Assembly (NCBI GenBank): GCA_964367375.1
Contig: CAYIXG010000004.1
Coordinates: 59,556-123,555 of the forward strand
Length of the DNA: 64,000 nucleotides
Direction of reading: 5' to 3'
Source of the DNA: Candidatus Woesearchaeota archaeon
GTDB taxonomy: Archaea; Nanobdellota; Nanobdellia; SCGC-AAA011-G17; UBA489
The translations under genes and the position numbers were made by a program. This document shows positions 24,485 through 62,021 of this stretch, piece by piece; the stretch's first letter is position 1; each line of letters starts with the position of its first letter. The notes under the pieces were generated by a model that saw nothing but the letters and a program-made list of their open reading frames with translations, did no database searches and had not been told where the DNA came from.

Positions 24485-24784
24485 ATGACTCCAGAAAAAG
24501 AACCTTTTAGTCGTATTGTCAAGACACCCTCAGGGAAAACCTATCGCATCGAATTTGATAGAGAGGGTTGCATCGGCGCAGCAGCATGCGTCGCCGCAGA
24601 TCCTAAGCATTGGATCATGCAAGCAGATGGGAAGCCCAATCTTCATGAAGCAACATCTGAAGGGCATACACAAACAAAAACGATTACTGATGCAGAATTA
24701 GAAGACAGCATTCGCGCAGCAGAAGTCTGCCCTGTACGAGTGATCAAAATCTTTGACGAAGAAGGCAATCAAATCGCGCCGTAA
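24485..24784 (+). CDS. small single-cluster ferredoxin-like protein
   Basis: CIGAAACV...CPV. Confidence 0.5.
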   Translation: MTPEKEPFSRIVKTPSGKTYRIEFDREGCIGAAACVAADPKHWIMQADGKPNLHEATSEGHTQTKTITDAELEDSIRAAEVCPVRVIKIFDEEGNQIAP

Positions 24785-25095
24785 ACTTCCTTCAACTTCT
24801 CCATTTTCTTCTCTTCCTGTGCACCCGCTACTGTCATCTCTGTGATTATCATTGGCACTTCAACTTCTTCTTGCTTCACCCTTTGTTTTACAACACCCAT
24901 TTCTCTCTGAAAGCCATGCTCACTGAGATATTCCTTTATTTCATTCGTCTGGTCACTATATTGTTTTGGTTGTCTTTCATTAATTTTACTTACTAACGGC
25001 CTGGTAGAAAATCGTGCTGTGTTCACGTCAGCAAACGTCATCGGAAAATACTCTTTTAATTCCTTTAAACTCAACCGTCTTTCTTGTTGAAACAT
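24769..25095 (-). CDS. hypothetical protein
   Basis: ORF only. Convergent 16-nt overlap with the ferredoxin gene. Confidence 0.3.
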   Translation of the reverse strand: MFQQERRLSLKELKEYFPMTFADVNTARFSTRPLVSKINERQPKQYSDQTNEIKEYLSEHGFQREMGVVKQRVKQEEVEVPMIITEMTVAGAQEEKKMEKLKEVYGAI

Positions 25096-25136
25096 CTTGT
25101 TTCACCTCTTTCTTACCTTTTTTGAGCCCTTTCTTC

Positions 25137-25150
25137 TATATAAATATATA
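25137..25150. promoter_or_regulatory. palindromic TATA-like element (TATATAAATATATA) in a divergent intergenic region
   Basis: Sits between the minus-strand ORF starting at 25095 and the plus-strand wHTH gene starting at 25266. Confidence 0.3.
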
Positions 25151-25265
25151 GATTCTCAAAAATGCGAATGCTCGTATTAATATAGGTATCTATAATGGTA
25201 TGAATATTAGTACCACTCTCCCATAGTCATAAACACTTTTAAAACACAACATCCTTGCACCAGCC

Positions 25266-25463
25266 ATGAAACTCGGGGAAAAGATCGAGCGAGACATTCT
25301 TCTCATCTTGAAAGATTATTCTTTTCCTGTCTCCACTCGAGAGCTTTGCTTGAAGATTGATCGTGCATGGCACTCTGTTAATACTCATTGCCTCAAACTG
25401 CAAATCTCTGGCAAGCTCAAAGGCTACAAAATAGGCAACATCAACGCGTGGTCACTCAAATGA
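25266..25463 (+). CDS. small winged-helix DNA-binding protein (65 aa)
   Basis: DILLILKDYSFPVSTRELCLKID...KLQISGKL has a wHTH-like pattern. Ends at the start of the giant surface protein gene. Confidence 0.35.
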   Translation: MKLGEKIERDILLILKDYSFPVSTRELCLKIDRAWHSVNTHCLKLQISGKLKGYKIGNINAWSLK

Positions 25464-28400
25464 ATAATATATCATCACCCCGGATACTGTACCTCTTTTT
25501 GGCATTCATCATTCTCTTCACATCACTCGCGACTGCAACCCTTTTTTATATCAACACAGAATCAACATTCAACGAAGGAACTTATGACAACACTTTTTAT
25601 AACAGCACAATAGGAGCAGTGCAACTCAACGCAACATACACTCTCGGCAATTACACCAGCAAAGTCTTTGACGGAGGAAATGTTACATCCTGGGACAACA
25701 TCACCTGGACAGAAGGAGCACCATACAACGAAGAACTTCCTGACAACGCACAACGAGAACCAACACTTGGCGGTGTGGACATGAATGGAAATGTGCTCTT
25801 ATTGCACCTTAATGACGAAAATGGTGTCATTGCAGACACTTCAGGATCTGCAAATAATGGCACTGTTACTGGAGCAACAACAGGTGTTGGCGGAAGATAC
25901 ACCACTGCAATCAGCTTTGATGGAACAGATGACTCTCTCAGCATTCCACATTCCTCTTCCCTTAACATCACTGATGCATTAACTATTGAAACATGGATCA
26001 ATCCCTTTGGTGAAAGCAATATCACTATTGGCACTATCAACGACACTCTTACAGACACCTTCGAATTTGACACAGCAGACGCTCAAGAACCTTCCTTCAT
26101 TCCAGTTGAAAATGATGTGTATGCTATTGCCTACGAAGGACCTGGATCTGATGGCTTCATCACCACCTTCTCCATTTCATCTACTGGAGACATCGGATCA
26201 GCACTCAGCACTTTTGAATATGATACCTCTGATGGCATTGAATCAGACCTGCTTCACATTTCAGACACTACCTATGCTGTTGCGTATACTGGACCAGGAA
26301 ATGATGGATTTGTTGCCACCCTTCCTATCTATCCCAATGGAACCATTGACTCAGTCATGAATAGCCTTGAATTTGACACTTCAGACGCGGGAGAGTCAGA
26401 CATCGTGCACATTGGAGACACAACTTATGCCATTGCGTATACTGGACCAGGAAATGATGGATTCTTGATTACTCTTCCTCTTCATCCAAACGGAACCATT
26501 GGGTCAATCATTAATAGCTTTGAATTTGACACCTCAAATGCACAAGAACCCTTCATCCTTTCCGTCACCGGAGACATATATGCCATTGCGTACAGCGGAC
26601 CAAGCAATGATGGATTCTTGATTACTCTTCCTCTTCATCCAAACGGAACCATTGGATCAGTCATAGACACTCTAGAATTTGACACTGCAGACACAAACAG
26701 ACCGCAACTCATTTCCATTGAAGGAACAACTTATGCAATCAGCTATGACGGATCAAACGGCAATGGATTTATCGCAACAGTTGACATTGCTGCTGACGGA
26801 CAAATTTCAAACACTGTCCTCAACAACTTTGAATATGACATTCTTGATGGCACTGAATCAAGCATCATCCCTGTCGCACGAAACGTGTATGCGCTCAGCT
26901 ACAGAGGGGAAAACGGAGACGGTTTTATCGTTACTCTTTTCATTCAGCCCGATGGCACGATCATCCCTTCTTATGCTGATAAACTTGAATTTGATATTGG
27001 AGATGGTCGTGAATCTACACTCCTTCACATTACTGGGAATACATATGCTGTCGCATACCGAGGACCTGGTGACGATGGATTTGTGAACACATTCACCATT
27101 GTTACTCATAAAGGCATCTTCAAAGCAGGAGCATATGAGATTGATGCAAATTCCACAACCGCATTTGCAATCGCAAATGGTACACTTACTGCGCCACTCT
27201 CTCCGGGATGGAATCACGTTGTGTTTACTTATGATACAACTGCTGCGAATGACCAGCAACAACTCTATGTTAATGGACAACTCAGCGCGAGCACCACCTT
27301 CTCTCAACCGCTCAACACCAGTACACATCCACTCACCATTGGAGAATACCTGAATGCGACTCTCGATGAGTTTGCTCTGTATAACAGGGCTTTGAGCGCA
27401 TCAGAAGTTCTTGATAGATATAAACGAGGCATCCTCAACCTCACACTCTTCGTTCGGAGCTGCACTGCACCAGACTGCTCAGACAATACACTCTGGGACA
27501 CTTCTTTCGGAACATCACCTGGAATTCTTTCTCTTCCTAACAATACCTATCTTCAATATAGAGCACACTTCACGACTGAAAGTGCAGCGTACAGCCCTGA
27601 ACTCCTTAATGTGACTCTTTCCTCAACAGACAGCAATGCACCCCCATCAACACCTCTCTTGAATGAACCAGCAAATAACTCAAATATAGCACTCTCTAGC
27701 GTCATCTTGAACGCCACTGTTGCTGATCCTGAAGGAGGATTGCTTACTGTCTTTTTCATCGGAAACAATGATATTATTAACACCACTATTGATGTTTTTA
27801 ATGCTTCAGATGTGTCATATAACTGGACTGGATTGTCTGATGGAGCATACACCTGGAGTGTCATTGCAAACGATGGAACAACAAACACCTCATCAGAAAC
27901 ATTCTCCTTTACTGTTAGTATTCCTTCCTCATCATCACCCTCAGGAGGACCGGGCTCTTCTTCTCCTGAAGGAATAACAAGCAGTGGAGTTGAAACAAAT
28001 CCCCAAACAGGACAATCTATTCGACCATCACCTCCAGGGCAGACAGCACCATCTCCTCAAGCTGCTACACCACCTTCTCCAGCACCATCACCCTCAGCAT
28101 CTCCTCCAGCAGCACCACCAATTACTGGAGCAGCAGCTCTTGAAGGACAACCTGAACACATTTCCGGATTTTCTATCAAGAACTTCTTCACTTCCCTTAT
28201 TCCGTCAACTCTTGATGCTGTTCTTGCAATCCTTTTCCTCTTTGTACTTATTTTCACCCTCATCATGCTCTTGAAAACAAAAAGCTTCCGCATATTCACT
28301 CGCGTACCACGCACTTCACGCCCTGTTTTTGCCCGTTACCAGTCATATAAGCAAGAAGTCATCAACAAAGACATCCACTCCTACTTAGGAAGAAGATATA

Positions 28401-28552
28401 ATATTCCCACACACTCTACTTTTTCCACACCAGAACATCATTTTTCGAACGACAGAAAGGTTAATAAAAAGCAAAAACTCCCCCAAGTCCAACAGATCCG
28501 AAGCACTAATCCTCAATTAGAAAAACTCAAAGAGGTGTATAAGATTGAGTAA
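25460..28552 (+). CDS. giant cell-surface protein
   Basis: Likely start at MNNISSPRILYLFLAFIILF. Architecture: signal/anchor, then LamG/ConA-like domain interrupted by 7 tandem ~51-aa repeats, then an N-glycosylation-sequon-rich domain, an S/T/P stalk (...PSPPGQTAPSPQAATPPSPAPSPSASPPAAPP), a C-terminal TM (LDAVLAILFLFVLIFTLIMLL) and a basic cytoplasmic tail. Confidence 0.7.
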   Translation: MNNISSPRILYLFLAFIILFTSLATATLFYINTESTFNEGTYDNTFYNSTIGAVQLNATYTLGNYTSKVFDGGNVTSWDNITWTEGAPYNEELPDNAQREPTLGGVDMNGNVLLLHLNDENGVIADTSGSANNGTVTGATTGVGGRYTTAISFDGTDDSLSIPHSSSLNITDALTIETWINPFGESNITIGTINDTLTDTFEFDTADAQEPSFIPVENDVYAIAYEGPGSDGFITTFSISSTGDIGSALSTFEYDTSDGIESDLLHISDTTYAVAYTGPGNDGFVATLPIYPNGTIDSVMNSLEFDTSDAGESDIVHIGDTTYAIAYTGPGNDGFLITLPLHPNGTIGSIINSFEFDTSNAQEPFILSVTGDIYAIAYSGPSNDGFLITLPLHPNGTIGSVIDTLEFDTADTNRPQLISIEGTTYAISYDGSNGNGFIATVDIAADGQISNTVLNNFEYDILDGTESSIIPVARNVYALSYRGENGDGFIVTLFIQPDGTIIPSYADKLEFDIGDGRESTLLHITGNTYAVAYRGPGDDGFVNTFTIVTHKGIFKAGAYEIDANSTTAFAIANGTLTAPLSPGWNHVVFTYDTTAANDQQQLYVNGQLSASTTFSQPLNTSTHPLTIGEYLNATLDEFALYNRALSASEVLDRYKRGILNLTLFVRSCTAPDCSDNTLWDTSFGTSPGILSLPNNTYLQYRAHFTTESAAYSPELLNVTLSSTDSNAPPSTPLLNEPANNSNIALSSVILNATVADPEGGLLTVFFIGNNDIINTTIDVFNASDVSYNWTGLSDGAYTWSVIANDGTTNTSSETFSFTVSIPSSSSPSGGPGSSSPEGITSSGVETNPQTGQSIRPSPPGQTAPSPQAATPPSPAPSPSASPPAAPPITGAAALEGQPEHISGFSIKNFFTSLIPSTLDAVLAILFLFVLIFTLIMLLKTKSFRIFTRVPRTSRPVFARYQSYKQEVINKDIHSYLGRRYNIPTHSTFSTPEHHFSNDRKVNKKQKLPQVQQIRSTNPQLEKLKEVYKIE
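26060..27110 (+). repeat. 7 tandem ~153-bp (51-52 aa) intragenic repeats, consensus FE[FY]DT.D..ES.....G.TYA[IV]AY.GPG.DGF..T..I.P.GTI
   Basis: Periodicity is visible at the protein level. A 50-bp identical stretch (aatgatggattcttgattactcttcctcttcatccaaacggaaccattgg) occurs at 26453..26502 and 26606..26655. Confidence 0.75.
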
Positions 28553-29354
28553 TATTGTTGGCGTTATTTCCATCAAGGGAGGCGTGGGAAAAACATCCTG
28601 CGTTGCCTCTTTAGGCGCAGTTCTCGCAGAATCATTCAACAAACGCGTGCTCCTTGTAGATGCAAACTTCACCGCACCCAACCTCGCATTCCATTATGGG
28701 CTTGTGGATGTCCCTGTCACTCTTCACCATGTGCTCACTGGATCGCGCACGATCATGAAAGCGATTTATGAATACAATAAAAAGCTCCATATCCTTCCTG
28801 GATCATTGCTTGGGAAGAAAATAAACCCGTTTCTTCTTCGTAAAGAACTGAACACTCTCCGCGAATTTTATGATATTATCCTTATTGATTCCTCACCCAA
28901 CTTAAACAACGAAATCATGGCAACCATGATTGCTGCGGATGAACTTCTTGTGATTACCACACCTGATTACCCGACGCTCAGCTGCACCATGCACGCCATC
29001 AAAATTGCAAAAGAACGCAAAACACCCATTACTGGCATTATCCTGAACAAAATGAGAAACAAATCCTTTGAATTAACCATTGAAGACATTGAAGACTGCT
29101 GCAAAGTCCCTGTCATTGGCTATTTGCCTGATGATATTAGCATGCTTGAAAGCCTCGCACACTCAAAACCTGTTTCCCTGCATAGTCCTTTAAGCAATGC
29201 ATCCATTGAACTGCATAAACTCGCGGCAGCACTCGTCAATCAACAGTATAAAGACCCGCGATTCTTCTCGCAATTCAAACAATGGATCACGAAAGACGTT
29301 CGCAAAGATGAAGTGAACAGAGATGTGTTACGACAACGCCAAAACCATTGGTAA
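28545..29354 (+). CDS. MinD/ParA/Mrp-family P-loop ATPase
   Basis: Deviant Walker A ISIKGGVGKTSCVASLG. TTG start overlaps the upstream stop by 8 nt. Confidence 0.75.
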   Translation: MSNIVGVISIKGGVGKTSCVASLGAVLAESFNKRVLLVDANFTAPNLAFHYGLVDVPVTLHHVLTGSRTIMKAIYEYNKKLHILPGSLLGKKINPFLLRKELNTLREFYDIILIDSSPNLNNEIMATMIAADELLVITTPDYPTLSCTMHAIKIAKERKTPITGIILNKMRNKSFELTIEDIEDCCKVPVIGYLPDDISMLESLAHSKPVSLHSPLSNASIELHKLAAALVNQQYKDPRFFSQFKQWITKDVRKDEVNRDVLRQRQNHW

Positions 29355-29399
29355 TTCTCGAGTAACATTTATATACTGAAGTATATATGTTTACCTTCT

Positions 29400-30065
29400 A
29401 TGGGAAAGGAATATTTACAGCAGCAGGACATGGAAGCAGCAAAGAAGAGAGATGCATCTTCAAAAGGAAACGTCCTTGAAAAAACCGTCCAAAAAGGTGT
29501 CTCTCCAGAGAGCATGCAAAAACGTGTTCTTCATAATCCTGCAATCATGAAGCACGCACAAGTCTGCAATCGATTTGGCATTACTTCTGCACACGTCAGC
29601 GGACATGACTTCACCTTCACAGACAAGGGATTTGAAGACAGCGTTCTTGAACATGAAGCACAATTGCAACCCCAATTATCATCTCAACCATCACCATCAA
29701 AAAATGAGAAGAAAGCACCCCTTGAAGAGACTATTGATGAAAACAAACAATCCCATGACCATTCCTCACGAGAAACCTTTGGCAAAATGTATGGCGTGAG
29801 CACTGACGCTGCCCAATGCAACTGTGGCAAAGAAATCAAACTTGAACCCAAAACATCCGGATTAAGCGCATCTGACTACACAAAAGAGAAAATGAGCGAT
29901 GATTTTGACCTGAAAAAGGGAAGCGAATACTCCACAGGAACCTCTGGAAAAGACACTGAAACGCAGCATCTTTATGGAAATACTTCTAATACACTTTCAC
30001 AAGGAGTGCAACAGACTTATACCAAGAAAAAGAAAGACCTCTTTGGCGTGGATACGTACACATAA
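29400..30065 (+). CDS. hydrophilic, low-complexity hypothetical protein
   Basis: ORF is rich in S/T/K/E/Q with no hydrophobic core. Confidence 0.4.
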   Translation: MGKEYLQQQDMEAAKKRDASSKGNVLEKTVQKGVSPESMQKRVLHNPAIMKHAQVCNRFGITSAHVSGHDFTFTDKGFEDSVLEHEAQLQPQLSSQPSPSKNEKKAPLEETIDENKQSHDHSSRETFGKMYGVSTDAAQCNCGKEIKLEPKTSGLSASDYTKEKMSDDFDLKKGSEYSTGTSGKDTETQHLYGNTSNTLSQGVQQTYTKKKKDLFGVDTYT

Positions 30066-30098
30066 CCTATTTAAATTCCCTCCCCTCTTTAATTATAT

Positions 30099-30287
30099 AT
30101 GGTTCGTAAGTGCCCGAAATGTGGTAGTACACATACTGAAATGGAAGGAGAAGACATCCACTTCTTAGTTTGCCTCGACTGCGGCTACGATGAAGGAGAT
30201 GAATATGCAATCGCAGAAGAGCGCGCCGGCAAAGGAGGCAAGGGCAGTCCGTACAAACGTGGCGGCTCACTCCGCACCCAGAAATAG
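30099..30287 (+). CDS. zinc-ribbon mini-protein
   Basis: CPKCGS...CLDCGY (two CxxC pairs) with a basic C-terminus. Confidence 0.45.
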   Translation: MVRKCPKCGSTHTEMEGEDIHFLVCLDCGYDEGDEYAIAEERAGKGGKGSPYKRGGSLRTQK

Positions 30288-57832: not shown

Positions 57833-60172
57833 TTATAATGTAAACGTGAAGGGAGCAGATGTTGCTGCAAATCCATTCACCAAGAATGGATTGTTTAAAT
57901 CAATTGTCACAAAGTTTCCATACACTGTAATACCTGCAATTGCAGGAGCATTCGGCACATCCCATGTAATTGTACCATTCCCATTTGCATCAGTATACCC
58001 AACAGTGTTTGAGAACCCTACTATCTGCGGCGTGCTTAACACCAGCTGGAACACAAAGTCATCAGTCAACGGCAATATTGCCCCACTCGGCAAGAGAATA
58101 CCTGGCGTTGTTGACAGAGACATCAAAAAGAGGTATAACAATCCTGGACCATCAGGATCTGAAATAGTGATGTTCACTTGCGATCCCACTTGCACGCTTG
58201 TCGGGGCATAGATTGAAGGTTGCGCTGCTGGCGCTGGAATTTCCTCATAGGAAAGCACGACTGCAAACGGCTGGCTTGGGAAAGGCACATTCTTCCCGCT
58301 CACCTTAATTGTATATGCACCGCTTACTGGAGTTTGGATACGCACCTGCTCCACATTATTAATTGTGTCTGTTGTGTCACCAAAAGGAGCATTCCAATCA
58401 TTCCCATTAAACACTGCCCCTGAAGGATCTGTCACAATCAAATCAATATCATTCACCAAATTCACTGGTGAAATCAATGAAGCTTCTTTATCTGTCCAGA
58501 CTAGTGTAACCTTTATCGGCTTGTTTGGCCCTGCATACACTGTGTATGTCATGTTCTGACTGGTGTTAACTCCTGTAGGCTCATCAACAAACCAGATATT
58601 GTGATGGCCTGGTAAGGAATTTGTCATATTTAACCTTCCCCAGCCTGACTCATTGCTTGGGATGCCAAAGCCCATGTCATCCGCACCATTAATCAACGAG
58701 GCTTTTACTAACGCGCTACTCGGATTTATGGAGAAATTTGTCAGATAATACTCACGCATCAAGGCTGCAACGCCTGAAACCATAGGAGCTGCCATGCTTG
58801 TTCCTGTACACTGTGCATAATTTGGCGTCAAACTATAAAATGGAGAGTTTAAGAAACACGTTCCCCATATATTATTCACGCTACTTTTTGTTGAAAAGAC
58901 TAGATAACCTGCAGCCATCAGATCAGGCTTTATCCTTCCATCACGAGCCGGGCCTCTTGACGAACTTGCATACAACGCATTAATATTAGTAGGATAAGGT
59001 GTATGAATATTCTCATGCGCGCCCACAGAGATAACATTCTTTGCAACCGCTTGCGGAGAAATCGTTCCATTTCCAGATTGCCCTGAATTTCCTGCAGCAT
59101 ACACAATGACTATATCTTTATTTGTCCATGTGAATGTATCAATACTCTGCGAATCTGGAGTGTAATTTCCATACAATCCTGAATTGATTGATCCCCAACT
59201 ATTACTGTGCACTCGCGCACCTGAAAGATATGGAGGATTAAACAATCCAGTGCTTAATGGTGTTGGCGGAAAGACAGATGAGTTTCCTAAATCATTTCCC
59301 ATTGCTTGAAATATCAACTGCGCATTCGGCGCAGCACCTGCATAACTTCCTGCAAATATGTTTGCTGTAGGAACGCTTCCTGACAAGTTCCCATTTCCCA
59401 GTGCAGTTCCTGTCACGTGCGTTCCATGCCCATTTATATCATCTGGAGACGTGCTTCCAATTGTTGCAACATCTGTAATACTTATAATTCTTCCCTCAAA
59501 ATCATCATGCATTGACCCATTATTTACTCCTGTATCAAGCCCTGTATCTGCAATTGCAATGATCTGACCATTTCCAAATAAGTTATAATTATCATGCGCC
59601 CCTTGCGCACCCGCAATCACTGTCGATGCGTCATTCAACACTTGATATTGCGGGATTTCTCCCACCCATTCGACACCCTCAATCATTGCAACCTCATCCA
59701 CATTTTTTTTGTTTACTCTAATATCAATACTGTCTTCATGTACCTCTTTGATGCTTACTCCTTTCTCATTCAACTTTTCCAGAATCCATTTCTTATCTGC
59801 ACCATCAAATAAGGTTACTCGCGCTTCAGTTCCTTTCTTTTCACTCAAAGACGCATCCCTATGATCTTTCGACGCGTATCTTCTCCATTCTTTCACTCCC
59901 TTTTTTCTCTGCAAATCATCAAGCTGACCTTCATCAGCACGCACAATATACGCAACCTTTATTTCATCTCCTTCTTTGTGCGTCACCACTCCCTCTATGC
60001 TGACACTCTCTCTTACTCCATCATACACCTCTTGCAACACAGGATATTCCACATCAACAAGATAAAACGCTTCTTCACCATTGACTGCGCCCACAGATAC
60101 TATAGATACTATCATTATAAGTGCCATTCCCAGAGCAATACCCCTTCTTTTCCTTCCTTTTTGGAATACCAT
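57833..60172 (-). CDS. secreted subtilisin-like serine protease (S8) with C-terminal beta-rich extension
   Basis: D in IIAIADTGLDTG, H in HGTHVTGT, S in GTSMAAPMVSG. Signal peptide. Confidence 0.85.
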   Translation of the reverse strand: MVFQKGRKRRGIALGMALIMIVSIVSVGAVNGEEAFYLVDVEYPVLQEVYDGVRESVSIEGVVTHKEGDEIKVAYIVRADEGQLDDLQRKKGVKEWRRYASKDHRDASLSEKKGTEARVTLFDGADKKWILEKLNEKGVSIKEVHEDSIDIRVNKKNVDEVAMIEGVEWVGEIPQYQVLNDASTVIAGAQGAHDNYNLFGNGQIIAIADTGLDTGVNNGSMHDDFEGRIISITDVATIGSTSPDDINGHGTHVTGTALGNGNLSGSVPTANIFAGSYAGAAPNAQLIFQAMGNDLGNSSVFPPTPLSTGLFNPPYLSGARVHSNSWGSINSGLYGNYTPDSQSIDTFTWTNKDIVIVYAAGNSGQSGNGTISPQAVAKNVISVGAHENIHTPYPTNINALYASSSRGPARDGRIKPDLMAAGYLVFSTKSSVNNIWGTCFLNSPFYSLTPNYAQCTGTSMAAPMVSGVAALMREYYLTNFSINPSSALVKASLINGADDMGFGIPSNESGWGRLNMTNSLPGHHNIWFVDEPTGVNTSQNMTYTVYAGPNKPIKVTLVWTDKEASLISPVNLVNDIDLIVTDPSGAVFNGNDWNAPFGDTTDTINNVEQVRIQTPVSGAYTIKVSGKNVPFPSQPFAVVLSYEEIPAPAAQPSIYAPTSVQVGSQVNITISDPDGPGLLYLFLMSLSTTPGILLPSGAILPLTDDFVFQLVLSTPQIVGFSNTVGYTDANGNGTITWDVPNAPAIAGITVYGNFVTIDLNNPFLVNGFAATSAPFTFTL

Positions 60173-60263: not shown

Positions 60264-62021
60264 ATGAACCACACACTCCCTGCGTTTATCCTTCTCAGCC
60301 TCCTCATTATCATTCCTATCGCATCCGCACAACCCACTTTCCTTGACCAAGTCTTTTATTCAGTATCCCTCCTTTTCACTGACTACTTTAAAATCACGGG
60401 ATACGTCGATCGCTTACTTCCAAACCAAGAAGCAGACGCTGATGGAGATGGCATCGCTGATATAAATGATAATTGCCCCACCATCGCAAATGCAAACCAA
60501 TTAGACAGCGATGGAAACGGCGTCGGAGATGCTTGTGATGATGGTGATGGAGACGGCGTGTATGATCTTTCAGACAACTGCCCCTCAACTGCAAATACAA
60601 ACCAGCAAGACTGCGATGATGACGGCACTGGAGACGAGTGCGATGCAACACCAGACCCTAATTGTGTTTGTAACCCCTCACCCAATTCTGCATGCTCTGG
60701 AGGAGGATTTGTAGGCGATGCTGACAGCGATGGCGTTGCTGATGACGGAGATAACTCAGGCTCAACCACCAACGCTCCTTGCCAAGGAGGAACATCCAAC
60801 TGCGATGACAACTGCAGACTTGTCGCAAACGGCCCTTTATTAGGAACTTGCAGCTCCAACGGCGCCCCCTGCTTCGCAAACGCTGCATGCCCAAACAGCG
60901 GAACCTGCAGCCGTTCCCAAGAAGAGTTAGATGATGACACTATTGGAGACGTATGCGACCCTTGCACAGACTCTGACAGCGACTCCTTTGGAGACCCTTC
61001 TTTTTTTGCAAACACCTGTTCACTCGATAACTGCCCGAGCATCAGCAATCCTAATCAATTAGACACAGACAGCGACGGCCTCGGCAATGCGTGTGATCCT
61101 TGCCCTGCAGATCCTCTCAACTCACCAGCATGCGCAAACAGCATTATCAGTGCAGGCGTTTTAGACAATGACAATGATGGCGTTCCAAACGCACAAGATA
61201 ATTGCCTTTACGATTACAACCCTAACCAGCAAGACTCAGATCAGGATGACATCGGAGACGAGTGCGACCTCTGCAGATTTGACCCCACTAATACCTGTAA
61301 TCCTAATCCTACTTTACAACCCCTCCTTCAAGACAGCGACGGCGATGGACACCATGACTTTGTAGACAACTGTGTTGATGTTCCAAACCCCACACAATCT
61401 GACGGAGACCAAGACACTGTCGGCAACGCGTGTGATGTTTGCCCAAACATTCCTGACGGCCCTTTCATTGGCACCTGCTCTGTCAGCCGCGTGCCTTGCA
61501 GCGAGGATTCAGAACCCTGCATAGACGATGACATTTGCGTCAAAGACCAGCAAGACTCGGATGATGATGGCATCGGAGACCTCTGCGAAAGCAGATTTGC
61601 TACCTCTCCAGACATTCTCGAAGAAACACCCTTATCTCCTGAAGACATCACCAGACAACGATTCACCCTTTTCCAAGAAACCTCACTTGAGGAACAAGAA
61701 GCCATCAGAAAACAGCTCGAACAATACCCTCTCGATGACCCCAGACAAATCACTGAAGCCCTTGTCAAGCTGGGATACATTGAAGCAGAACTGTACAGCA
61801 TTCAAACCAATATCAACACCCTCAAAGATTTAGATCCTGAAAATGCTCAGTATGAGGACATCCAAGCACACCTTGATTTTGTCATCACCCAAACGAATAT
61901 CCTTCAAACAGAACTTAAACACCAACGCGCCACTACTCAAAAAGTCTCACGCGTTCCTCTTTACAATCTTGGACGCCAACTCAAACAAGCCCTTAGCAGC
62001 CTTCATCGAATCTTTCAATAA
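60264..62021 (+). CDS. secreted Ca-binding protein with many thrombospondin type-3-like repeats
   Basis: More than 12 D-x-D-x-DG-x-x-D-x-C motifs (DADGDGIADINDNCP, DSDGNGVGDACD, ...). C-terminal alpha-helical region. Confidence 0.7.
   Translation: MNHTLPAFILLSLLIIIPIASAQPTFLDQVFYSVSLLFTDYFKITGYVDRLLPNQEADADGDGIADINDNCPTIANANQLDSDGNGVGDACDDGDGDGVYDLSDNCPSTANTNQQDCDDDGTGDECDATPDPNCVCNPSPNSACSGGGFVGDADSDGVADDGDNSGSTTNAPCQGGTSNCDDNCRLVANGPLLGTCSSNGAPCFANAACPNSGTCSRSQEELDDDTIGDVCDPCTDSDSDSFGDPSFFANTCSLDNCPSISNPNQLDTDSDGLGNACDPCPADPLNSPACANSIISAGVLDNDNDGVPNAQDNCLYDYNPNQQDSDQDDIGDECDLCRFDPTNTCNPNPTLQPLLQDSDGDGHHDFVDNCVDVPNPTQSDGDQDTVGNACDVCPNIPDGPFIGTCSVSRVPCSEDSEPCIDDDICVKDQQDSDDDGIGDLCESRFATSPDILEETPLSPEDITRQRFTLFQETSLEEQEAIRKQLEQYPLDDPRQITEALVKLGYIEAELYSIQTNINTLKDLDPENAQYEDIQAHLDFVITQTNILQTELKHQRATTQKVSRVPLYNLGRQLKQALSSLHRIFQ

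What the first reader, a model, noticed from the sequence alone, without database searches (positions are those of the whole stretch)
25266..30287. Operon for a giant surface glycoprotein-like protein with a tandem repeat array inserted inside a LamG domain, coupled to a MinD/ParA ATPase
The ~1030-aa protein begins a LamG/ConA-like domain (LLHLNDENG...ALTIETWINP). It then inserts 7 tandem ~51-aa repeats (FE[FY]DT.D...YA[IV]AY.GPG.DGF...P.GTI) exactly where the central strands of LamG belong. The canonical LamG core resumes afterwards (GWNHVVFTYD...LYVNGQL...EFALYNRALSASEV). This is followed by a sequon-dense domain (many N-x-S/T), an S/T/P stalk, one TM and a basic tail. Two repeats share a 50-bp identical DNA stretch, indicating recent expansion and possible length variation. 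The gene is translationally coupled by an 8-nt overlap to a MinD/ParA-type ATPase. After that come a disordered protein and a Zn-ribbon, and the gene is preceded by a 65-aa wHTH gene. A dedicated cytoplasmic positioning ATPase next to a single-pass surface protein is not a described system.
Basis: seen in the sequence. Interest (0 to 1): 0.7.

Follow-up and report, generated by a model that had tools for sequence, protein, structure and literature searches.

The report
Surface lectin-like protein coupled to MinD
A small symbiotic-type (DPANN) archaeon encodes a membrane-anchored, sugar-binding-like surface protein built from domains nested inside one another, and its cytoplasmic tail ends in a short motif found almost only in proteins encoded next to one MinD-type positioning ATPase, which suggests an undescribed link between that ATPase and surface proteins.

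Summary
The sequence observation holds. Window 25460-28552 encodes a 1030-aa type-I membrane protein. Its single LamG domain is split by seven 51-aa repeats. AlphaFold2 (pLDDT 91) folds these as a 7-bladed beta-propeller nested in the LamG sandwich. The gene overlaps a 65-aa upstream gene by 4 nt and a MinD-like ATPase gene by 8 nt.

The repeat family is widespread and has no Pfam model: about 1,600 clusters in archaea and CPR bacteria. Copy number is quantised at 7, 14 or 21, so free length variation is not supported. The 50-nt identical tract looks like local gene conversion.

MinD is not linked to the LamG-propeller as such: three ectodomain homologues have no MinD next to them. It is linked to the locus and the tail. 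In related DPANN loci the gene directly upstream of the orthologous MinD encodes very different proteins (66-1778 aa, with unrelated ectodomains). These share a C-terminal motif, ΦΦxxLKEVY: 12/45 upstream ORFs versus 4/1023 others (p≈1e-14).

The motif partly doubles as MinD's ribosome-binding site, but it persists in six cases with no such role. The best reading is that the tail peptide docks MinD. This is inferred, not shown. I rate it a new variant of a known kind, of moderate to high interest.

The parts
24769..25095 (-). Divergent 108-aa ORF whose C-terminus (EKLKEVYGAI) carries the same motif as the tail of the big protein. Possibly a second, soluble MinD partner; whether it belongs to the system is uncertain.
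   Evidence: It is one of only 4 motif-bearing ORFs among 1023 that are not directly upstream of MinD. Its codons differ from those of the big gene's motif, and no gene lies downstream for which the motif could act as a ribosome-binding site.
25096..25265 (.). AT-rich divergent intergenic region with TATA-like elements and short palindromes. Presumed promoter and operator region.
   Evidence: Sequence; palindromes TCTATATA/TATATAGA and TGGTATGAATATT/AATATTAGTACCA. The function is inferred.
25266..25463 (+). 65-aa small putative DNA-binding (wHTH-like) protein. Its stop overlaps the big gene's ATG by 4 nt.
   Evidence: It is 59% identical to the equivalently placed 73-aa protein in L005. Homologues P0251 and P0245 also sit directly upstream of genes for 1080-aa and >744-aa secreted proteins. 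No Pfam or NCBIfam hit.
25460..28552 (+). 1030-aa type-I membrane surface protein (whole gene).
   Evidence: An identical protein is present in public assemblies (P0001).
25541..25744 (+). N-terminal half (aa 28-95) of an 'outer' domain. Its other half follows the LamG domain.
   Evidence: 43% identical to the N-terminus of the L003 partner protein. Conserved in CPR and DPANN homologues. Confident strands in the full-length model. Packing against the C-half was not checked in 3D.
25745..26044 (+). LamG domain, N-terminal part (aa ~96-195).
   Evidence: profile positions 1-28 matched; complete match once the insert is deleted.
26045..27118 (+). Seven 51-aa repeats (aa 196-553) forming a 7-bladed beta-propeller nested in the LamG domain.
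   Evidence: AF2 model with pLDDT 91 and pTM 0.87, four strands per blade. Foldseek best matches are the Photorhabdus 7-bladed lectins PLL2/PHL, TM 0.75. The family has 1599 clusters with E≤1e-3.
26453..26655 (+). Two exact 50-nt copies (26453-26502 and 26606-26655) in blades 3 and 4. Read as a local gene-conversion tract.
   Evidence: The two blades are otherwise about 75% identical at DNA level.
27119..27433 (+). LamG domain, C-terminal part (aa 554-658).
   Evidence: Pfam PF13385, 66.9 bits, profile positions 51-150/151.
27434..27625 (+). C-terminal half of the outer domain (aa 659-722; VRSC..C...Y.QY motif).
27662..27925 (+). Sequon-rich Ig-like domain (aa ~735-822).
   Evidence: Weak Big_13 and CBM53 hits below cut-off. 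6 sequons per 100 aa. Four strands predicted at low confidence.
27926..28204 (+). S/T/P-rich stalk (aa 823-915).
   Evidence: family D4; disordered.
28205..28276 (+). Transmembrane helix (aa 916-939).
   Evidence: Hydropathy scan; predicted helix 918-939.
28277..28549 (+). Basic cytoplasmic tail (aa 940-1030).
28514..28549 (+). C-terminal motif QLEKLKEVYKIE (consensus ΦΦxxLKEVY). The codons AAA GAG GTG also form the Shine-Dalgarno-like site of the MinD gene.
28545..29354 (+). 269-aa MinD-like deviant Walker A ATPase, TTG start.
29400..30065 (+). 221-aa low-complexity orphan ORF. Probably a separate unit and not part of the conserved module.
   Evidence: Absent from L003.
30099..30287 (+). 62-aa Zn-ribbon protein. 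Conserved next to MinD only in the syntenic relative L003.

Best explanation
**Organism and operon.** The window is chromosomal DNA of a DPANN archaeon of the Woesearchaeota/Pacearchaeota type. Three overlapping genes form the unit: a small putative DNA-binding protein, a 1030-aa surface protein, and a MinD-family ATPase.

**Surface protein (shown by sequence and model).** It is a Sec-exported, probably N-glycosylated type-I membrane protein. Its ectodomain is a nested set of domains: an outer domain split by a LamG jelly roll, which is itself split by a 7-bladed beta-propeller. The propeller is most similar in fold to bacterial propeller lectins. I infer that it binds glycans or a partner-cell surface, as proposed for other DPANN LamG proteins.

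**Coupling to MinD.** A stalk and one TM helix lead to a 91-aa basic cytoplasmic tail ending in an amphipathic motif (ΦΦxxLKEVY). I infer that this peptide is the docking or regulating site for the MinD-like ATPase encoded immediately downstream. ATP-dependent MinD dimers on the membrane would then cluster or position the surface protein. Conversely, the surface protein could anchor MinD at a particular place such as a cell-contact site.

**Modularity.** Across related genomes the ectodomain is swapped freely, or absent, while the tail motif and MinD stay. The unit therefore reads as 'any cargo + KEVY tail + MinD'.
For: **Architecture**
- The LamG profile is restored when the insert is deleted.
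- The AF2 model has pLDDT 91 and pTM 0.87, with 7 blades of 4 strands.
- Best fold matches are propeller lectins and trans-sialidases.
- Repeat number is quantised at 7, 14 or 21.
- Sequons are enriched in the ectodomain.
- DPANN LamG proteins are already proposed to be adhesins (PMC5498576, PMC7414124).

**Coupling**
- The MinD is a conserved DPANN orthologue with more than 3,500 hits at 53-64% identity among those listed.
- L003 is syntenic with the window on both sides. It keeps small gene, TM protein and MinD with 4-nt overlaps, but its ectodomain is a BNR/sortilin-type propeller.
- L005, L006, L030, L086, L087 and L099 also have large TM proteins upstream of MinD, with unrelated ectodomains.
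- Short soluble partners of 66-194 aa carry the same C-terminal motif.
- The strict motif occurs in 12/45 ORFs directly upstream of MinD against 4/1023 other ORFs, Fisher p=1e-14. Three of those four 'others' also lie in or near MinD loci.
- The motif is kept with non-SD codons, or far from MinD, in L004, L008, L020, L030, L087 and the window's 108-aa ORF.
- The conserved hydrophobic positions at -3, -6 and -7 and the terminal aromatic residue lie outside the SD hexamer.

**Precedent**
- The C-terminal 29 residues of CapA, a membrane protein encoded upstream, bind the MinD-like CapB (PMC2422856).
Against: - No direct evidence of binding.
- In 10 loci the motif codons AAA GAG GTG are the ribosome-binding site 2-10 nt before the MinD start. 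Part of the conservation is therefore at the nucleotide level.
- Only about half of the close MinD orthologues (≥50% identity) have a motif-bearing upstream gene.
- LamG-propeller homologues elsewhere lack MinD.
- The ATPase scores below NCBI's curated minD_arch cut-off, 168.7 against 201.75 bits.
- Whether it binds membrane is unknown.
- A lectin function rests on fold similarity at 10-14% sequence identity.
Confidence: 0.5

Rival explanations
1. Adjacency without a functional link. MinD is a housekeeping ATPase, for example for division-site or chromosome organisation, that happens to sit downstream of a fast-evolving surface-protein slot. On this view the shared C-terminal 'KEVY' is a by-product of the Shine-Dalgarno sequence (GGAGGTG) and of translational coupling embedded in the end of the upstream gene.
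For: - In the window and in L003, L005, L006, L007, L009, L086 and L099 the motif DNA contains a 4-8-nt match to AGGAGGTGATC, 2-5 nt before the MinD start.
- About half of the close MinD orthologues have no motif-bearing upstream gene.
- Ectodomain homologues lack MinD.
Against: - Six cases keep the peptide motif with no SD role: L004 (99 nt away, GGGGGT), L008 (30 nt, GACGTA), L030 (72 nt), L087 (693 nt), L020 (388 nt) and the minus-strand 108-aa ORF.
- Conservation extends to hydrophobic residues and to a terminal Tyr/Phe/His that the SD does not encode.
- The motif is about 90-fold enriched at this one genomic position.
Confidence: 0.25
2. A partition-like, three-gene cassette: small site-specific DNA-binding protein, then adaptor, then ParA/MinD ATPase, in the same order as AspA-ParB-ParA of the archaeal plasmid pNOB8. 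The membrane protein's tail would act as the adaptor and tether a DNA site or nucleoid region to the envelope.
For: - A small DNA-binding-type gene overlaps the start of the partner gene in many loci. It is wHTH-like in the window, L005, L006 and L030, MazE/AbrB-like in L003, and RHH-like in L004, L087 and L124.
- The gene order and overlaps resemble partition operons (own knowledge of pNOB8 and of type Ib par systems).
Against: - No ParB/Srx or other known adaptor domain was found.
- No centromere-like repeat array lies upstream, only short AT-rich palindromes.
- The small wHTH also precedes large secreted-protein genes that have no MinD. This fits a local transcription regulator better.
- The ATPase is closest to archaeal MinD, not ParA.
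Confidence: 0.1
3. A split BY-kinase-like pair, in which the membrane protein's C-terminal tail completes the nucleotide site of a MinD-like tyrosine autokinase, as in CapA/CapB.
For: - The top Pfam hit is AAA_31, and there are weak hits to tyrosine-autokinase models.
- The upstream TM protein has a conserved aromatic residue near its C-terminus, as with F221 of CapA (PMC2422856).
Against: - There is no C-terminal tyrosine cluster.
- Walker A' reads VDAN rather than DxD, with no Arg (sequence).
- minD_arch scores 168.7 bits against 33.9 bits for the tyrosine-kinase model.
- The protein aligns with archaeal MinD through residue ~229, so it has its own C-terminal helices.
Confidence: 0.03

Closest known systems
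Archaeal and bacterial MinD (e.g. A. fulgidus MinD-1, PDB 1HYQ; P. furiosus 1G3Q; Haloferax MinD4)
   Same: Deviant Walker A ATPase. The best curated family is minD_arch. It aligns with 1HYQ over residues 5-229, E=5e-31. MinD-family ATPases position cellular machinery, and partners bind through short helices (own knowledge; Haloferax work listed).
   Different: The score is below the curated minD_arch cut-off. No MinC or MinE is known in archaea. Here the candidate partner peptide lies at the extreme C-terminus of the protein encoded upstream, which is often a surface protein.
HubP/FimV and MinJ (bacterial membrane hub proteins that recruit ParA/MinD-family ATPases)
   Same: A membrane protein with an extracytoplasmic domain and a cytoplasmic region that recruits MinD/ParA-type ATPases to a defined site (own knowledge). 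This is the closest functional analogy.
   Different: No sequence similarity. Those proteins are not encoded in overlapping operons with the ATPase. Their outer domain binds peptidoglycan (LysM) or is absent, and is not lectin-like. They are bacterial.
CapA/CapB split BY-kinase (S. aureus)
   Same: A membrane protein encoded immediately upstream binds a MinD-like P-loop protein through its last ~29 residues, and a penultimate aromatic residue contacts the adenine (PMC2422856).
   Different: The window's ATPase has no tyrosine cluster and no DxD motif, and it keeps MinD's own C-terminal helices. It is not a kinase family member.
pNOB8 AspA-ParB-ParA and type Ib ParA/RHH partition cassettes
   Same: The gene order is small DNA-binding protein, middle protein, then Walker-type ATPase, with overlapping genes (own knowledge).
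   Different: The middle protein is a surface glycoprotein without ParB domains. The locus is chromosomal and no centromere repeats were seen.
Seven-bladed propeller lectins PLL/PHL of Photorhabdus, and trans-sialidases (propeller plus ConA-like lectin domain)
   Same: Fold: TM-score 0.70-0.76 to PLL2/PHL. Trans-sialidases combine a propeller with a ConA-like domain.
   Different: Sequence identity is 9-14% and there is no shared family model. In trans-sialidases the two domains are in tandem, not nested. Sugar binding was not tested.
LamG / concanavalin A-like proteins of DPANN and CPR organisms (arCOG07813; 'LamG domain-containing' giant pilins)
   Same: PF13385 member. Homologues are annotated as type IV pilin or LamG proteins in Thermoplasmatota, Patescibacteria and Nitrosopumilus. 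They are proposed adhesins (PMC5498576, PMC7414124).
   Different: This member has a Sec signal and a C-terminal TM anchor instead of a pilin N-terminus. It carries the MinD-linked tail motif.

Membership tests
LamG / Laminin_G_3 (PF13385) | Match to the family HMM above the gathering score, covering the whole domain | tested here: met
   66.9 bits (cut-off 27.6) for aa 554-650, profile 51-150. With the insert deleted: 74.5 bits, profile 1-150/151 in one stretch.
LamG / Laminin_G_3 (PF13385) | Jelly-roll beta-sandwich formed by both flanks together | tested here: inconclusive
   The AF2 model is confident over both flanks (pLDDT 80-95, pTM 0.87). Coordinates could not be inspected, so the packing is inferred from pTM and the HMM result.
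Seven-bladed beta-propeller lectins (PLL/PHL type) | Seven 4-stranded blades forming a closed propeller | tested here: met
   (28 strands in 7 sets). (TM 0.70-0.76 to 6rgg, 5mxg, 6rfz). Copy number is quantised to 7, 14 or 21.
Seven-bladed beta-propeller lectins (PLL/PHL type) | Sequence homology and conserved sugar-binding residues | tested here: not met
   10-14% identity. No family model hit for the repeat array. Binding residues were not examined.
MinD/ParA deviant Walker A ATPases | Deviant Walker A xKGGxGK[ST] with signature lysine, and family HMM matches | tested here: met
   SIKGGVGKTS at residues 9-18. AAA_31 74.1, CbiA 68.0 and ParA 53.0 bits, all above cut-off.
Archaeal MinD (TIGR01969 minD_arch) | Score at or above NCBI's curated cut-off | tested here: not met
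   168.7 bits against a cut-off of 201.75. It is still the best-scoring family by far.
Archaeal MinD (TIGR01969 minD_arch) | C-terminal amphipathic membrane-targeting helix | tested here: inconclusive
   The C-terminal stretch PRFFSQFKQWI has an amphipathic pattern, but the family consensus there is weak. There is no experimental or structural test.
BY-kinase (CapB/Wzc type) | C-terminal tyrosine cluster and DxD Walker A' | tested here: not met
   The C-terminus ...RKDEVNRDVLRQRQNHW has no Tyr cluster and Walker A' reads VDAN. The tyrosine-kinase model scores 33.9 bits against a cut-off of 108.
ParABS / AspA-ParB-ParA partition cassette | ParB-type adaptor domain and centromere repeats | tested here: not met
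   No ParB/Srx hit in any of the genes. Only short palindromes lie upstream.
ParABS / AspA-ParB-ParA partition cassette | Small site-specific DNA-binding protein encoded first | tested here: inconclusive
   A small wHTH-like, AbrB-like or RHH-like gene precedes the partner gene in many loci. DNA binding was not tested, and the same wHTH precedes surface genes that have no MinD.
HubP/FimV polar hub | LysM domain and FimV C-terminal motif | tested here: not met
   No such Pfam hits. The resemblance is functional only.
Archaeal type IV pilin (as many homologues are annotated) | Class III signal peptide / Pilin_N (PF07790) at the N-terminus | tested here: not met
   No PF07790 hit in the window protein, unlike the Thermoplasmatota homologues. 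The N-terminus looks like a Sec signal, and there is a C-terminal TM anchor.

The most novel reading that the evidence does not exclude
DPANN archaea of the Woesearchaeota/Pacearchaeota group have a modular 'cargo-tail-MinD' system. A conserved C-terminal amphipathic peptide (ΦΦxxLKEVY) marks proteins as clients of a dedicated MinD-family ATPase. These clients are often giant, rapidly exchanged, lectin-like surface adhesins. The ATPase would position or cluster them, for example at the contact site with a host cell. This would be the first MinD/ParA cargo system for surface adhesins, and the first cell-biological handle on how ultra-small episymbiotic archaea organise their attachment surface.
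Probability: 0.3. Interest if true: 0.8.

Novelty: new variant of a known kind. Interest (0 to 1): 0.6.

Why it matters
DPANN archaea live attached to other cells, yet almost nothing is known about how they organise their contact surface. Archaeal MinD proteins have few known clients. A short, easily synthesised tail peptide found specifically next to one MinD orthologue gives a directly testable hypothesis: peptide-MinD binding and ATPase stimulation.

It also explains why one chromosomal slot carries very different surface proteins in related genomes. Separately, the 51-aa blade family has about 1,600 clusters in archaea and CPR bacteria, often nested in LamG domains of giant pilins and adhesins. 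It has no Pfam or NCBIfam model and deserves one.

Tried and rejected
- **Exact-contig look-up** of the 1030-aa protein found nothing. The organism's name stayed unknown.
- **Genome-contig scan** with MinD as a single protein found no relatives. It was repeated with an alignment.
- **AFDB50 fold library** was not available.
- **tRNA and Rfam scans** of the window were empty.
- **Literature searches** for a DPANN MinD-partner system found nothing relevant. The 2026 'Dip' divisome-positioning system is an unrelated GTPase system.
- **Programmed frameshift** fusing the tail to MinD was considered and rejected. The overlap geometry differs between loci (8, 4 and 1 nt, or gaps), and there is no slippery site at ATT GAG TAA.
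- **BY-kinase membership** was considered and rejected.
- **Length-variable contingency locus** was considered and rejected for the repeat array.
- **Second shared motif** (LKEYFPMT..DVN) between the 108-aa ORF and the tail of P0117 was searched for. Only those two instances exist in the data held.

Full report
**1. What is in the sequence**

Three genes overlap on the + strand.
- A 65-aa ORF lies at 25266-25463.
- A 1030-aa ORF runs from the ATG at 25460 to the stop at 28552, sharing ATGA with the ORF before it.
- A 269-aa ORF lies at 28545-29354. It starts at a TTG and overlaps the large gene by 8 nt.

The surrounding genes place the window in an archaeal chromosome. They include aIF5B, GluRS, the archaeal termination factor FttA, a TrmB regulator, thioredoxin reductase and glutamate dehydrogenase. 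The closest relatives of the ATPase come from MAGs labelled Nanoarchaeota, Woesearchaeota and Pacearchaeota. The organism is therefore a DPANN archaeon.

**2. The large protein**

It has these parts in order:
- an N-terminal hydrophobic signal;
- an ectodomain of about 890 aa;
- an S/T/P stalk (aa 823-915);
- one TM helix (aa 916-939);
- a 91-aa basic tail.

Sequons are enriched in the ectodomain: 25 observed against 14.3±3.2 in shuffles. None occurs in the stalk or tail.

Pfam finds Laminin_G_3 only over aa 554-650, covering profile positions 51-150 of 151. I deleted aa ~192-552 in silico. The joined flanks then matched the whole profile (1-150) in one stretch with a higher score, 74.5 bits. 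This is one LamG domain with an insertion, not two domains.

The insertion is seven 51-aa repeats with a 153-nt period. An AlphaFold2 model of aa 95-665, built with 16 homologous segments, has pLDDT 91 and pTM 0.87. It shows seven sets of four strands between the LamG halves. Foldseek against the PDB gives the seven-bladed propeller lectins PLL2/PHL of Photorhabdus as best matches (TM 0.70-0.76). Next come trans-sialidases, which combine a propeller with a ConA-like lectin domain. Sequence identity is only 9-14%, so lectin activity is an inference from fold.

The residues before the LamG domain (aa 28-95) and after it (aa 659-722) are conserved together in homologues. They also flank a different inserted domain in a relative. 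Both are confident in the full-length model. The LamG-propeller is therefore probably itself nested in an outer domain. I could not inspect coordinates to confirm the packing.

**3. The repeat family**

The LamG-plus-propeller module has hundreds of homologues:
- Thermoplasmatota proteins with an archaeal pilin N-terminus;
- giant CPR/Patescibacteria proteins with a bacterial prepilin N-terminus;
- proteins from Nitrosopumilus and Chloroflexota.

An exhaustive HMMER search with the propeller alone found 1,599 clusters with E≤1e-3 and 544 with E≤1e-30. Many are stand-alone ~380-aa propellers. Neither Pfam nor NCBIfam has a model for the blade.

A blade HMM counted 7 copies in 39 proteins, 14 in 57 and 21 in one, out of 119. 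The number is set by propeller closure.

In the window, blades are 35-50% identical, except blades 2-4, which are 70% identical. The exact 50-nt tract lies within blades 3 and 4, which are otherwise 75% identical at DNA level. Local gene conversion explains this better than recent expansion. I found no support for length variation.

**4. The ATPase**

It has the deviant Walker A motif KGGVGKT. It passes the Pfam AAA_31, CbiA and ParA cut-offs. Its best curated family is archaeal MinD, although the score is below the cut-off (168.7 against 201.75 bits). It aligns with A. fulgidus MinD-1 (1HYQ) over residues 5-229. It has more than 3,500 relatives, and the best 120 are 53-64% identical and of the same length.

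**5. Is the pairing conserved?**

Not with the ectodomain. The neighbourhoods of three LamG-propeller homologues (P0070, P0117, P0088) contain no MinD.

It is conserved with the locus.
- L003, from Hainich groundwater, is syntenic with the window on both sides. VIT1 and ferredoxin lie upstream. The Zn-ribbon, TrmB, TrxR and GDH lie downstream.
- L003 has the same three overlapping genes, but its 727-aa membrane protein carries a BNR/sortilin-type propeller.
- It shares with the window protein only the outer-domain halves, the stalk-TM-tail layout and the last residues.
- L005, L006, L030, L086, L087 and L099 likewise have large TM proteins upstream of MinD (871-1746 aa where the gene is complete; the L086 ORF is cut by the contig end). 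Their ectodomains are unrelated or unknown.
- In other loci the upstream protein is small and soluble, 66-194 aa.

**6. The shared tail motif**

All these upstream proteins end alike:
- ...LEKLKEVYKIE (window)
- ...VVALKEVYKL (L003)
- ...IRHFKEVYKNE (L005)
- ...ILNDLKKVYKIE (L086)
- ...LAQLKGVYE (L099)
- ...LLKELRKAYEQ (L030)
- ...IIENLKGVYEDE (L004)
- ...VLNKLKDVYSEE (L008)
- and others.

I scored all DPANN loci fetched with a MinD alignment. A strict C-terminal pattern occurs in 12 of 45 ORFs directly upstream of MinD. It occurs in 4 of 1,023 other ORFs (Fisher p=1e-14). The four exceptions are:
- the window's divergent 108-aa ORF (…EKLKEVYGAI);
- a 1544-aa membrane protein 680 nt upstream of MinD in L087;
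- a 134-aa ORF 376 nt upstream of MinD in L020;
- one MinD itself.

There is an important caveat. In ten loci the codons AAA-GAG-GTG are also the Shine-Dalgarno-like site 2-10 nt before the MinD start. Part of the conservation is therefore at the nucleotide level.

Three points argue for selection on the peptide as well:
- Six cases keep the motif with other codons and no possible SD role.
- The conserved hydrophobic positions (ΦΦxxΦ) and the terminal Tyr/Phe/His lie outside the SD.
- The pattern is that of an amphipathic helix.

**7. Other genes**

- **Small upstream gene.** It is 59% identical to its counterpart in L005. Its homologues also precede genes for large secreted proteins that have no MinD. 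In other MinD loci its place is taken by a MazE/AbrB-like or an RHH-like gene. I read it as a local regulator of surface-protein genes. A partition-like role is a minor rival.
- **221-aa ORF.** It is an orphan.
- **Zn-ribbon.** It is conserved only in L003.
- Both the 221-aa and Zn-ribbon ORFs have their own TATA-like boxes.

**8. Interpretation**

- **Shown:** the nested LamG-propeller architecture; the type-I topology; MinD-family membership at superfamily level; the conserved synteny; and the position-specific tail motif.
- **Inferred:** that the tail peptide binds or regulates the MinD-like ATPase; that this serves to position or cluster the surface protein, or to anchor MinD; and that the ectodomain binds glycans on a partner cell.
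- **Known analogues:** HubP/FimV and MinJ, MinE-type helices, and CapA/CapB. In CapA/CapB the last 29 residues of the upstream membrane protein bind a MinD-like protein (PMC2422856). None is homologous, and I found no description of this DPANN arrangement.

**9. Verdict**

The ectodomain is a new member of known kinds. The tail-MinD module is a new variant of ParA/MinD cargo systems, and it is backed by comparative genomics only. Interest 0.6.

Noticed in passing
window 24769-25095 (-): A 108-aa ORF ends in EKLKEVYGAI, the same motif as the big protein's tail but with different codons. Its N-terminus, RRLSLKELKEYFPMTFADVN, resembles the extreme C-terminus of the tail of homologue P0117 (KRMTPEELKKFFPITSSEVN). 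Only these two instances of that second motif were found.
   Followed up: partly
window 1-64000: GC skew is negative in every 2-kb bin (-0.04 to -0.51), whatever the gene orientation. The + strand is C-rich throughout, and the cumulative skew never turns.
   Followed up: no
L099 2040-3101: A reverse transcriptase (RVT_1, 99 bits) overlaps the start of the 1472-aa MinD-coupled surface-protein gene. It may be a diversity-generating retroelement acting on this class of protein.
   Followed up: partly
L001 4954-5973 and 12375-13103; L005 10434-12581; L167 2378-5549; P0070 locus: KaiC-like ATPase (PF06745), DUF7504 and DUF835 genes recur next to genes for large DPANN surface proteins, both with and without MinD.
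   Followed up: no
L005 8800-10398; L006 8782-10327; L090 2669-4330: In a marine subgroup, MinD is followed by a conserved pair. One is a 330-360-aa two-TM coiled-coil protein and the other a 185-aa six-TM protein. Neither has a Pfam family.
   Followed up: partly
L023 7703-8738; L136 614-1658; L145 7703-8735; L009 6880-8759: A MinD paralogue (45-50% identical) sits inside a glycosyltransferase / glucan-metabolism-like cluster. In three of the four loci (L023, L136, L145) it is preceded by a ~100-aa protein (DUF5752-like in L023) that ends in a related motif (IIEQIKGEILNG).
   Followed up: partly
window 29368-29375 and 30067-30080: TATA-like boxes lie about 25 nt before the ATG of the 221-aa ORF and of the Zn-ribbon ORF. 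This suggests separate, nearly leaderless transcripts rather than one long operon.
   Followed up: no
window 57833-60172 (-) and 60264-62021 (+): Two further probable secreted or surface proteins: a 779-aa subtilase and a 585-aa protein with thrombospondin type 3 repeats.
   Followed up: no
window 25541-25744 and 27434-27625: The LamG domain is itself bracketed by two conserved half-domains. In L003 the same halves bracket a BNR propeller instead. This suggests a three-level nested ('Russian doll') architecture and a general insertion-tolerant scaffold.
   Followed up: partly
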